From Hormiphora californensis (taxonomy: Eukaryota > Animalia > Ctenophora), in assembly GCA_020137815.1 (NCBI GenBank), contig CM035358.1, positions 6,758,001 to 6,822,000 on the forward strand: a DNA stretch of 64,000 nt, read 5' to 3'. A program made the translations under genes and the position numbers. Shown piece by piece: positions 6,501-9,500 of the stretch. The notes below the pieces were generated by a model that was not told where the DNA came from, made no database searches, and saw nothing but the letters and a program-made list of their open reading frames with translations. The number at the start of each line of letters is the position of its first letter. The first letter of the stretch is position 1.

Positions 6501-9500
6501 TCCACCTCTCCCTAGGTTCACACGCTGAACAGAGAGCTAACGAACAACCAGCAGACCCTGAGGAGTCTGAGTGAGGACTACCAATCTAAAGTGACGTCAT
6601 TGGGTGGTGCTCACCAACAGATATCCGAACTTCAGGATAACCTTCACAGGTAGAGGGAGGGTAGAGGGAGGGAGGGTAGAGGGAGGGAGCCGCAGCTGTA
6701 TACCTAGTACGATAAGATGGTTGGGGTCTCTGGAGACTTTGATTGACTAAATGGTCATTTTTGGCCAAATTTGGTCAATTTTCCAAAAATATTCCAAAAA
6801 TTTCGTGGTTTTGTTTCCAGAAAAAAGTATAAATTTTGCCATTTTTTGCACGAAAAAGCTAGTTTTTGGGTAAATTTTGGGGGTTGTAGGGGTCTATTTA
6901 GGTTTAAACCACGAAAGTAAATTGAATAAGTGGTCCATTTTGGGGGTGGGGGTCCTTTTGGGTCTTGACCAATTTTTAGGCATATATATGTAGTTACGTC
7001 AGAACCATTTATCTTGAACCCCCTCCCCCTGAGCGTGCAGCATTATTAAATTATAACGTTTTTGTGTTACAAAAACACAATTTTATAATTATGGCACAGA
7101 ACACAAGAATATATTCCAATAAATCACTCCAAAATACTGGTCCTTGTCTCTTTTTGGAACAAGAATGTCATTAGAAACGCCACACTCGAAACCCCACCAA
7201 TACCTCCAATAATGTACGGATAGTTGTCCAGACTCAGTAATAGTGCCGCTACCGCTGTTCCGATACTAAACAACCGACCTGTACTCAGCAGGTAGCCTTG
7301 TAACATTGCTCGTTGATCAGTGGGGTAGACCTCGTTGGAATAAAGTTTGAAAATTGTAAAGCTGCACGACTTCACAAACTTAAGCAGGACAATATTGATC
7401 ACCAATTTGATACTCCCTCCAATGCAGATGAGTAGCGCAAAAAGGAGCGCTGATAGTGCTCCAACCATCGCCCTGATCGACAGAATCCTCGATATATACA
7501 AATTCACAGCCAGCATTATCCCTGCACCAGCAATATCTCCTGTCATACCTAGCGCCAACATCGAGAGAGACTTGTCACTGTAGGTATGGCAGTTAGCGGT
7601 GTGGTTGGTAGACCCTAGCTCGCTGCCACAATAGCCTTCATTATACATTCTAGGGCCACCAAACATCAGTAATGAATAAGTTAGGGACTGTGAGATGCTG
7701 ACGAATATGAAAGCTAAGGTATGCCGTTGGAAGGTCGTATCCCTGTAGGGGAGTTGTAGAAGTGAGATCTGGGTGGGGTCACCGACATTGTGGTTCACCA
7801 ACTCTCCCTCCAGAGGAGCTGTCTTATTCAAACGCCATATGTCGGTTATAGTAGTTTTAGCGGAGTCCAATCTGTCACATGCGATATCATAAAAGGCTGA
7901 TTCCCGTTGGGTCAGGGTAGCTAGGGCTCCGAGAAATCCGGGCACGGAGAGAATGACTAAGACAACCCTCCAACCGGAAGATTCAAGGAGAGCTCTGGCG
8001 GTAAGGGCGGCAGTTAGCTCACCAATTCCGTAAGAAATGGACTGGGCAGTAAACACATAGGATCGGGTCCAAACGGGCGAATACTCAACTGAGTAAATAG
8101 TTGCTGCCGATGTTGCTATTTCTAAAAACAATACTGTGATTCCACGGAATACCAGAAACTGAACAAAACTTCCTGCCATGGCTGACGCTATCGCGGCAAT
8201 CGAGGAGAGAAAAGTAAAGATGATTATGTTGTAGAGCCGTCCAAATCGAGTGATGAGATGACCCCCAGCGACCCCTCCGGATATTACTGAGAGAATAATT
8301 GCGAAGGGTATGATAGCCACTTGAAGTTGGGAAAGGGACCACTCACACTTCAGTTTGGGTATTATGGTACCTAACACTGTATTCTCTGCTTCTTTAGTAA
8401 AATGTGAGATGATGACACAGAATATGGGTATCACGGTTCCGGGTCCTACTCCAGCGTGGTTTAGTGCTTCCTGGACGGTGTACGTTGGTTTGTCTGTGGT
8501 GTCTGTTGTGTTGTCTGTGCTATCTGTTGGTTTGTCTGTTGGTTTGTCTATATTATTGTCAGTGCTACCATAGTCCTCCGCCGAGGTGGTTCCCTTTATC
8601 GGGTCCTGATCTGACATCTTCTTGAGTCGCCTGGTGTTCTGTGATACGAACAATTCAACTATCTTCGAGTTTATAATTACACATTTCTATTATGGATAAG
8701 TTTGAAAGGAAATAAACTCAAATTTATTTGATAGCAAGTATCTAGAAAAACAAAGCAGCATTTTATGAAGCAAACAGCTAGCATAATAACATGATAATAT
8801 GCAATAAATGCAAATGTATAGTACGATAAGATGGTTGGGGCCTCTGGAGACTGTGATTGAATGTGTAGGGTATACCGGGGTAATTTGGACGGTGGGGCAA
8901 TGTGGTCACAGGACGGGGCAATGTGGACTAGTGATTTATATGGGACTTTTAAATTGTGGTGTTTAGTGTGAAATAACGAAAAATGACGACTTTAAAGTTT
9001 AACTTTATTTCGGTAAACTTAATTATGATAATTATTTAAATTATGGGTTAGAATTGCACAATATGATATTTTTCTATCCAGTTTCATCATCAAAATGACA
9101 TTAGCTTTCGATTTAATTAGCTAATTAGCATTTTAATGAAGCGGGGCAATTCGGACAATTTGGGGCAATTTGGACGAAAAAATCGGGGGCAATTCGGTCA
9201 TAAACCAGATTGCCCCATGGGGCAAATTGGTTAAGACAAATTGGCCTCATGGCACCATTATACTCGTTTCTATGGAAACCATAGACAACCTACTTTCATA
9301 ATTATCCTATTAAATCAATATAGATGGCTAAAACTGAGTAAATATACCAAAAAAAGTAGAAAAAAGGCGCATTTTACAACCAATTCTCTGCTTGCCAAGG
9401 TGACAAGTCAATCCATGGTGTGGTATTCGACAAACCAACTTAATGGGGTGCTCCAAAATATCTAGGACTGGTGCTTTGATAACCAAAAGTAGTGTTTTAT

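What the first reader, a model, noticed from the sequence alone, without database searches (positions are those of the whole stretch)
6705..8860. Intronless SVOP-like gene with SL relic: retrocopy of a trans-spliced mRNA kept intact inside an intron
Seen: a 497-aa intronless ORF among intron-dense genes; a decayed SL (14-nt perfect 3' end) 100 nt upstream of the ATG; a 42-bp direct repeat with 2 mismatches flanking the block (6705-6746, 8819-8860). The relic now contains a pyrimidine tract plus AG (TGCTTTGTTTTTCTAG), a ready trans-splice acceptor. Established: relic SLs mark mRNA-recycled genes in dinoflagellates. Inference: the same recycling generates nested intronic genes here, expressed without their own promoter. 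No poly(A) tail is visible.
Basis: partly seen in the sequence, partly recalled or inferred. Interest (0 to 1): 0.8.

Follow-up and report, generated by a model that had tools for sequence, protein, structure and literature searches.

The report
Nested comb-jelly transporter, possible leader relic
An intact, intron-free transporter gene lies backwards inside another gene's intron in what is likely a comb-jelly genome; it is one of several copies likely spread by ordinary DNA duplication from an old founder that was possibly copied from a leader-spliced messenger RNA, and the repeat around it is probably not an insertion scar.

Summary
The 497-aa intronless MFS (SVOP-like) ORF, its place in a host intron and the 42-bp repeat are real. 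The '14-nt perfect' leader end is perfect only against a variant copy in this window. It is 13/14 to the leader in 107 of 107 outside matches, still unlikely by chance; the 5' part of the 'decayed leader' is not significant. The gene runs antisense to its host, so host RNA cannot express it. Sequencing runs show several paralogous copies in this species and a relative. They share flanking DNA upstream of the motif and show head-to-tail joints: DNA-level duplication. The 42-bp repeat is then likely a duplicated conserved upstream element, not a target-site duplication. Sister copies carry 10 extra bases inside the motif; direction unresolved. Best reading (0.5): an old leader-tagged founder, later tandemly duplicated; rival (0.3): the motif is a deletion by-product. 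No parent gene or RNA was found. The scan had noted leader-headed LINEs and leader-hammerhead elements in this genome, but my look-ups showed no leader-tagged host gene.

The parts
7124..8617 (-). Intronless 497-aa MFS transporter ORF, SVOP/SVOPL-like; one member of a multi-copy family
   Evidence: paralogous contigs
8717..8730 (-). Leader-like 14-mer, 13/14 to the canonical leader end, 14/14 to the window's variant copy; sister copies carry 10 (type 3) or 3+1 (type 2) extra bases here
8742..8760 (-). Pyrimidine tract plus AG, candidate trans-splice acceptor (use not shown); the AG is kept in the type 2 copy
   Evidence: 10 of 12 pyrimidines; tables 3-4
8734..8777 (-). Non-coding block upstream of the 14-mer shared with a paralog of this species and with a copy in organism B (4 differences in 44)
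   Evidence: records 14 and 20; record 24
8803..8864 (.). Upstream element that holds the right 42-bp repeat (8819-8860); found with several different left neighbours in organism A, and 8812-8838 kept upstream of a gene copy in organism B; candidate promoter-side element (inferred)
   Evidence: tables 5, 7, 8
6705..6746 (.). Left 42-bp repeat copy, 55 nt into the host intron; likely a duplicate left by tandem rearrangement
   Evidence: joints
6747..7032 (.). Repeated (transposon-like) DNA between the left repeat and the gene's 3' end; right boundary approximate
   Evidence: loose ends before 6747 in X3, X6, X7, behind 7032 in X3; high summed depth in X3
8866..10530 (.). Non-coding DNA transposon with 25-nt perfect terminal inverted repeats, TAG...CTA ends and GTG on both sides; Academ-like (family traits recalled, not tested)
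   Evidence: very high depth
6516..6649 (+). Host coiled-coil gene exon before the intron (ends in phase 2)
   Evidence: covered by organism B contigs
10703..10854 (+). Host coiled-coil gene exon after the intron (phase-compatible)

Best explanation
This is an intact SVOP-like transporter gene nested antisense in a host intron, one of several copies likely spread by DNA-level tandem duplication from an old founder that was possibly reverse-transcribed from a leader-spliced mRNA and kept only the leader's last 14 or so bases. Shown: orientation, intact frame, several paralog types, shared upstream flanks, head-to-tail joints. Inferred steps: (1) before this species and organism B split, a trans-spliced mRNA was copied into DNA with a 5'-truncated leader, probably by LINE machinery; (2) the copy acquired its own antisense transcription, probably from the conserved 8803-8864 element, and a trans-splice acceptor (AG at 8742; sister copies also have a TTACAG made by 10 extra bases inside the relic); (3) gene plus flanks were duplicated head to tail, and the 42-bp repeat is a duplicated piece of the upstream element left by that process; (4) the protein likely works as a 12-helix-type MFS carrier of small organic solutes (substrate unknown).
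For: 14-mer rare by chance: 0 of 234,598 control positions with at most 1 mismatch, analytic 2e-4 per 200 nt, 4e-6 for the exact variant; right strand and 99 nt from the ATG. Where the window's copy departs from the canonical leader, the type 3 copy has the canonical base, so the two together fit a canonical ancestor (read by hand). At least four upstream types in run X3. Paralogs align to 8777 and to 8803-8864, beyond any mRNA 5' end. Joints 8867 back to 7080 (X6) and 8852 to 6806 (X3) are head-to-tail arrangements. Age: three X3 coding pieces differ from the window by 12%, while 8 of 15 listed organism B coding pieces differ by 4-9% and a host exon piece by 9% (table 8, 32 of 933 rows shown). 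Constraint: 88-90% identity to an intact P. bachei protein; 19 synonymous and 15 non-synonymous among 34 listed coding differences, crude ratio 0.26. Nine inner leader copies on longer contigs, one a leader gene, show leader sequences sit in genomic-type DNA.
Against: The 5' part of the leader is not recognisable above chance. Type 2, type 3 and an organism B copy do not have the intact 14-mer, and the 10-base difference lies between short repeats, so a deletion in the window's lineage explains it with the same number of events. No intron-bearing parent found. A sister-branch protein (P0159/P0161) has 363-372 uninterrupted codons on 54- and 111-kb contigs, so the clade may have been intron-poor long before, which removes 'intronless' as support (organism unknown). 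0 of 97 leader-headed contigs carry a second relic with at most 2 mismatches. No poly(A). The tandem reading rests on two short contig joints; the window itself shows one copy.
Confidence: 0.5

Rival explanations
1. No leader ancestry. The family is an old intron-poor MFS clade that duplicates in tandem. The window's lineage lost 10 bases between two short repeats next to an ordinary acceptor and, with two substitutions, came to resemble the leader end.
For: Type 3 (two individuals of organism A) and an organism B copy share the acceptor-bearing form. Type 2 also has extra bases here. 5' part not significant. Long uninterrupted frames in relatives at 25-35% identity. The window has the unshared base at 8763.
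Against: Needs a 2e-4 per-gene coincidence, and 4e-6 for matching the window's variant exactly. Type 2 looks mosaic (identical to the window over 8606-8726, diverged beyond) and organism B holds lineages closer to the window than type 3 is, so neither polarises the indel.
Confidence: 0.3
2. The 14-mer is truly leader-derived but entered an existing gene: a stub of a leader-headed mobile element, or a patch of the gene's own trans-spliced cDNA recombined into its 5' end. The gene itself is not a retrocopy.
For: Leader copies are common in this genome: 718 reported (PMC8527503, passages), one in this window at 19540. Five bases shared by leader and flank could serve as a crossover point.
Against: The 99 nt after the motif do not resemble the leader-headed elements among 106 loci (BLAST) or a hammerhead core, and part of them is kept in organism B. 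Type 2 shares the last 9 bases of the motif.
Confidence: 0.12
3. One reading: a single retrocopy flanked by a 42-bp target-site duplication and expressed without its own promoter by trans-splicing from read-through RNA.
For: Intronless frame, leader-like motif, acceptor and a flanking direct repeat are all present.
Against: Antisense to the host. Repeat 88 nt from the motif and about 300 nt of repeated DNA plus UTR from the stop. Repeat copies 95% alike although the family predates a 9-12% divergence. No poly(A). No joint that skips the block was listed for X3 or X6 (absence in contigs proves little). Paralogs share the flanks.
Confidence: 0.04

Closest known systems
SL-relic retrogenes of dinoflagellates (Song et al. 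2017, PMC5585692, passages read)
   Same: A leader-like stretch 50-100 nt upstream of an intact coding sequence; partial loss of the leader; an AG in or near the relic can serve a new round of trans-splicing.
   Different: There about 22-23% of genes carry relics, parents are paired, and a TTT(T/G) motif is proposed as promoter. Here one family, 13/14 bases only, no parent, 0 of 97 leader-headed contigs with a second relic.
Tandemly repeated single-exon genes of Polarella glacialis (PMC7245778, passages read)
   Same: Single-exon genes amplified in unidirectional tandem blocks in a trans-splicing organism where relic leaders occur.
   Different: A dinoflagellate-wide architecture; here a small family nested antisense in an animal intron, and the tandem state is inferred from two contig joints.
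Nested intronic genes of Hormiphora californensis (PMC8527503, passages read)
   Same: Gene inside one host intron, flanked by transposons; 2357 such genes reported, 1109 with a transposon on at least one side.
   Different: The passages give no origin for them; the word start 'retro' occurs 0 times in the main text. Supplements could not be read.
SVOP/SVOPL transporters (MFS, SLC22-related)
   Same: Pfam Sugar_tr and MFS_1; nearest named hits are SVOPL of a fish and of scallops; nearest solved structures are SLC22 carriers.
   Different: Only 21-28% identical; sits in its own branch with P. bachei paralogs (quick tree); intronless, whereas animal SVOP genes are intron-rich (recalled).
Penelope-mediated host gene copies in Adineta vaga (PMC3846280, passages read)
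   Same: A host gene between direct repeats, family expansion.
   Different: There the repeats are about 200-bp pseudo-LTRs with 8-10-bp target duplications; the 42-bp repeat has no hammerhead core and only two copies in the window.

Membership tests
SL-relic retrogene (dinoflagellate type) | Significant leader relic upstream of the coding sequence | tested here: inconclusive
   3' 14-mer 13/14, rare by chance; 5' part P 0.12-0.35; sister copies interrupt it
SL-relic retrogene (dinoflagellate type) | Parent gene without the relic, with introns lost in the copy | tested here: inconclusive
   No genome held. No intron-type joint inside the ORF among 6 listed joints. One organism B contig type stops at 7251 and the P0008 cluster stops at residue ~197: introns or truncations, not resolved
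SL-relic retrogene (dinoflagellate type) | Transcript with a fresh leader ahead of the relic | not testable with these tools
   No RNA holder listed; the one guessed RNA run laid nothing
Processed retrocopy (LINE-type insertion) | Poly(A) tail at the 3' end | tested here: not met
   None between the stop and the left repeat; old copies lose it (established knowledge)
Processed retrocopy (LINE-type insertion) | Short target-site duplication abutting both ends | tested here: not met
   42-bp repeat is 88 nt from the motif and about 375 nt from the stop codon
Processed retrocopy (LINE-type insertion) | Homology with other copies ends at the mRNA ends | tested here: not met
   Copies align to 8777 and 8803-8864, upstream of the motif
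Nested intronic gene | Whole gene inside one intron of another gene | tested here: met
   Intron 6650-10702 with GT...AG and phase-compatible exons; predicted from DNA, no RNA
SVOP/SVOPL-like MFS transporter | MFS_1 / Sugar_tr domain above cut-off, SVOP-type nearest named relatives | tested here: met
SVOP/SVOPL-like MFS transporter | Orthology to SVOP or SVOPL | tested here: inconclusive
   Quick tree of 42 rows (careful search unfinished, midpoint root) puts it in a separate 6-row branch, support 99
Penelope-mediated gene transduction | Flanking pseudo-LTRs with a hammerhead core | tested here: not met
   6 core-like motifs in the window, none in or near the repeats

The most novel reading that the evidence does not exclude
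A functional animal gene family born from a leader-spliced mRNA before two comb-jelly species split, whose leader relic was remodelled into new trans-splice acceptors in different copies and which then expanded in tandem inside a host intron. Leader relics would then tag and date retrogenes among the thousands of nested genes of ctenophores, as they do in dinoflagellates.
Probability: 0.3. Interest if true: 0.6.

Novelty: new member of a known kind. Interest (0 to 1): 0.3.

Why it matters
Ctenophore genomes hold unusually many nested genes and hundreds of scattered leader copies (PMC8527503), and their origin is open. If host genes, not only mobile elements, are re-inserted with the leader, the relic gives a direct test of a retroposition origin for nested genes. 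This locus is a weak example: the tag is short and ambiguous, and most of its present anatomy is ordinary gene duplication. If the rival holds, it is an ordinary nested gene family and a warning that AT-rich acceptor regions can mimic the leader end. Two searches listed no paper on leader-tagged retrogenes in ctenophores; the library lacks most subscription papers, including Derelle 2010.

Tried and rejected
No genome is held for the window, so paralog loci could not be read directly. No RNA holder listed; run X14 laid nothing: no evidence on expression either way. Searches for DNA around relatives found nothing in metagenome contigs, genome contigs or viral contigs; no SVOP-like hit in the 106 leader loci; no second copy in the window. 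I first read the motif as clearly derived because types 2 and 3 share extra bases; I withdrew that when type 2 proved identical to the window downstream of 8726 but diverged upstream (mosaic) and organism B proved to hold lineages closer than type 3. The idea that the 42-bp repeat is a high-copy transposon end was dropped: a contig runs from the host exon through the left copy at exon-like depth (record 9). Contig depth was not used as a copy number. Rfam over 17500-20100 gave no leader or hammerhead family, only low-complexity hairpin matches below gathering scores. The sigma-70 scan does not apply to an animal. The Atlas search with P0159 gave only SVOPL/MFS clusters and no organism. Literature searches for leader sequence variants gave nothing relevant. 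Earlier-findings look-ups were empty. The other nested antisense genes at 34.2-36.7 kb show no leader 14-mer with 2 or fewer mismatches.

Full report
Setting. The window is very likely from a pleurobrachiid comb jelly. It holds a copy of the ctenophore spliced leader at 19540-19583 close to the Hormiphora californensis consensus (PMC8527503, passages read), and the ORF's best hit is a Pleurobrachia bachei protein at 88-90% identity. No genome was available, so other copies were studied through contigs of public runs: organism A (the window's species by word share) and organism B (a relative).

The gene. The ORF at 7124-8617 (-) is intact, 497 aa, MFS type. Its nearest named relatives are SVOPL proteins at 21-28% and its nearest solved structures SLC22 carriers. 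A quick tree of 42 proteins (careful search unfinished) groups it with three P. bachei proteins and two unnamed ones, support 99. Of the 40 difference rows shown (of 360), 34 are coding: 19 synonymous, 15 not, 21 at third positions, crude ratio 0.26 (one apparent stop comes from scoring two changes in one codon apart). That fits purifying selection. The gene lies in intron 6650-10702 of a + strand coiled-coil gene, so it is antisense. Trans-splicing from the host pre-mRNA is therefore impossible, and the gene needs minus-strand transcription of its own or from an unknown upstream gene.

The leader-like motif. The 14-mer at 8717-8730 is 99 nt from the ATG. It is perfect against the window's own leader copy, but a scan that allowed A or T at the sixth place found T in 107 of 107 matches on 106 loci, among them a tandem leader-RNA gene. 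So it is 13/14 to the leader known to be used; the pattern would miss leader classes that differ upstream. The match is still hard to get by chance: 0 hits with at most 1 mismatch in 234,598 control positions, analytic 2e-4 per 200 nt. The rest of the supposed decayed leader scores like control DNA (P 0.12-0.35). As a test of general recycling, 0 of 97 contigs that begin with the leader carry a second relic with 2 or fewer mismatches in the next 200 nt, against about 22-23% of genes with relics in Symbiodinium (PMC5585692, passages). The test is partial: a relic spliced at its own last AG would vanish from the mRNA.

Other copies. Run X3 holds at least four upstream types. Type 1 equals the window. 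Type 2 equals it over 8606-8726 but has 3+1 extra bases in the motif and 5 substitutions and further gaps beyond. Type 3 has 10 extra bases inside the motif that make a TTACAG acceptor-like site; it is seen in X3 and X6 and the same acceptor-bearing stretch is in organism B. These copies align upstream of the motif, to 8777, and several contigs carry 8803-8864 with other neighbours; an organism B contig keeps 8812-8838 at about the same distance from the gene. An mRNA copy cannot carry such flanks, so the present copies are related by DNA-level duplication. Two joints point to head-to-tail units: 8867 back to 7080 in X6 and 8852 to 6806 in X3. The window itself shows one copy, so other units lie elsewhere, in other haplotypes, or are collapsed.

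Direction of the indel. At first sight types 2 and 3 make the window's motif look derived. But type 2 looks like a mosaic with its switch at the motif. Organism B also holds coding pieces closer to the window (8 of 15 listed pieces at 4-9%) than organism A's own divergent type (three pieces at 12%), with a host exon piece at 9% (table cut to 32 of 933 rows). The split between types 1 and 3 thus likely predates the species split, and organism B does not root it. Both histories need three events: canonical leader end, then one substitution in type 1 and an insertion plus one substitution in type 3; or acceptor-bearing ancestor, then a deletion plus two substitutions in type 1. Only the first explains the leader match without luck, so I favour it, at about 0.5 against 0.3 (my weighing, not a computed posterior). 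Against it stands the sign that the clade was intron-poor early: a sister-branch protein has 363-372 uninterrupted codons on contigs of 54 and 111 kb, though its organism is unknown and its frame starts at query residue 126, which may mark an intron.

The repeat. It is real (40 of 42) but does not behave as a target-site duplication. It is long, does not touch either end of a putative cDNA, and its copies are 95% alike while the family is 9-12% old in coding sequence. The right copy belongs to an upstream element shared among gene copies and partly kept in organism B. I read the left copy as a later duplicate from tandem rearrangement. Both copies are followed by transposon DNA (6747 onward; 8866-10530), as is common for nested genes in H. 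californensis. It has no hammerhead core, which argues against Penelope-type capture as described in PMC3846280 (passages).

Comparison and verdict. It works like a dinoflagellate leader-relic gene later amplified as tandem single-exon copies (PMC5585692; PMC7245778, passages), but membership is not shown: relic inconclusive, no parent, no RNA. As a LINE-type processed copy it fails three tests in its present state. Earlier notes of this scan report leader-headed LINEs and leader-hammerhead elements in the same genome; these are unchecked, raised my prior that leader-bearing RNA is retroposed here, and gave two paper leads, but are not evidence for this locus. Literature searches listed no report of leader-tagged ctenophore retrogenes; Derelle 2010 and the G3 supplements could not be read and may bear on leader variants and on this claim. 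Verdict: observation partly confirmed, interpretation partly supported, new member of a known kind at best, interest 0.3.

Noticed in passing
window 19540-19690 (+): A 44-nt leader copy, 2 bases off the canonical leader and with no GT donor, is joined directly to a hammerhead-like core (CTGATGA, stem, GAAAC) inside a host intron. Already noted by the scan (e1-10648729).
   Followed up: partly
L068 711-735 and 1489-1513: Two leader exons 778 bp apart, each followed by a GTAAG donor and the same downstream sequence: a tandem leader-RNA gene from a marine contig.
   Followed up: partly
window 8866-10530: 1.67-kb non-coding DNA transposon with 25-nt perfect terminal inverted repeats and GTG on both sides; very abundant in both organisms.
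   Followed up: partly
window 13500-17200 (+): LINE with an ORF1 remnant (13815-14267) and an 843-aa RT-type ORF (14660-17191) in a host intron; a leader-like stretch at about 12952-12976 lies upstream. Domain labels are from reading the translation, not from a family search.
   Followed up: no
window 34200-36700 (-): Further antisense nested coding pieces: a probable secreted protein with a hydrophobic N-terminus, introns and ATTEAEER repeats, and a related piece at 34458-34913.
   Followed up: no
window 7251 (organism B runs X7, X11): A diverged copy (24 differences in 141) matches only the last part of the ORF and then runs into unrelated sequence near a TAG: an intron-bearing paralog or a truncated copy.
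   Followed up: no
P0008, P0154, P0155: A relative about 50% identical whose frame stops near query residue 197 in all three members and whose N-terminus differs between members; possible exon boundary.
   Followed up: partly
window 8479-8568: Short tandem repeats in the protein's N-terminus; organism B lacks 33 bases (11 residues), matching the shorter P. bachei protein.
   Followed up: yes
window 1-64000 (+): The host looks like one very long coiled-coil gene with many exons spread over the window; not identified.
   Followed up: no
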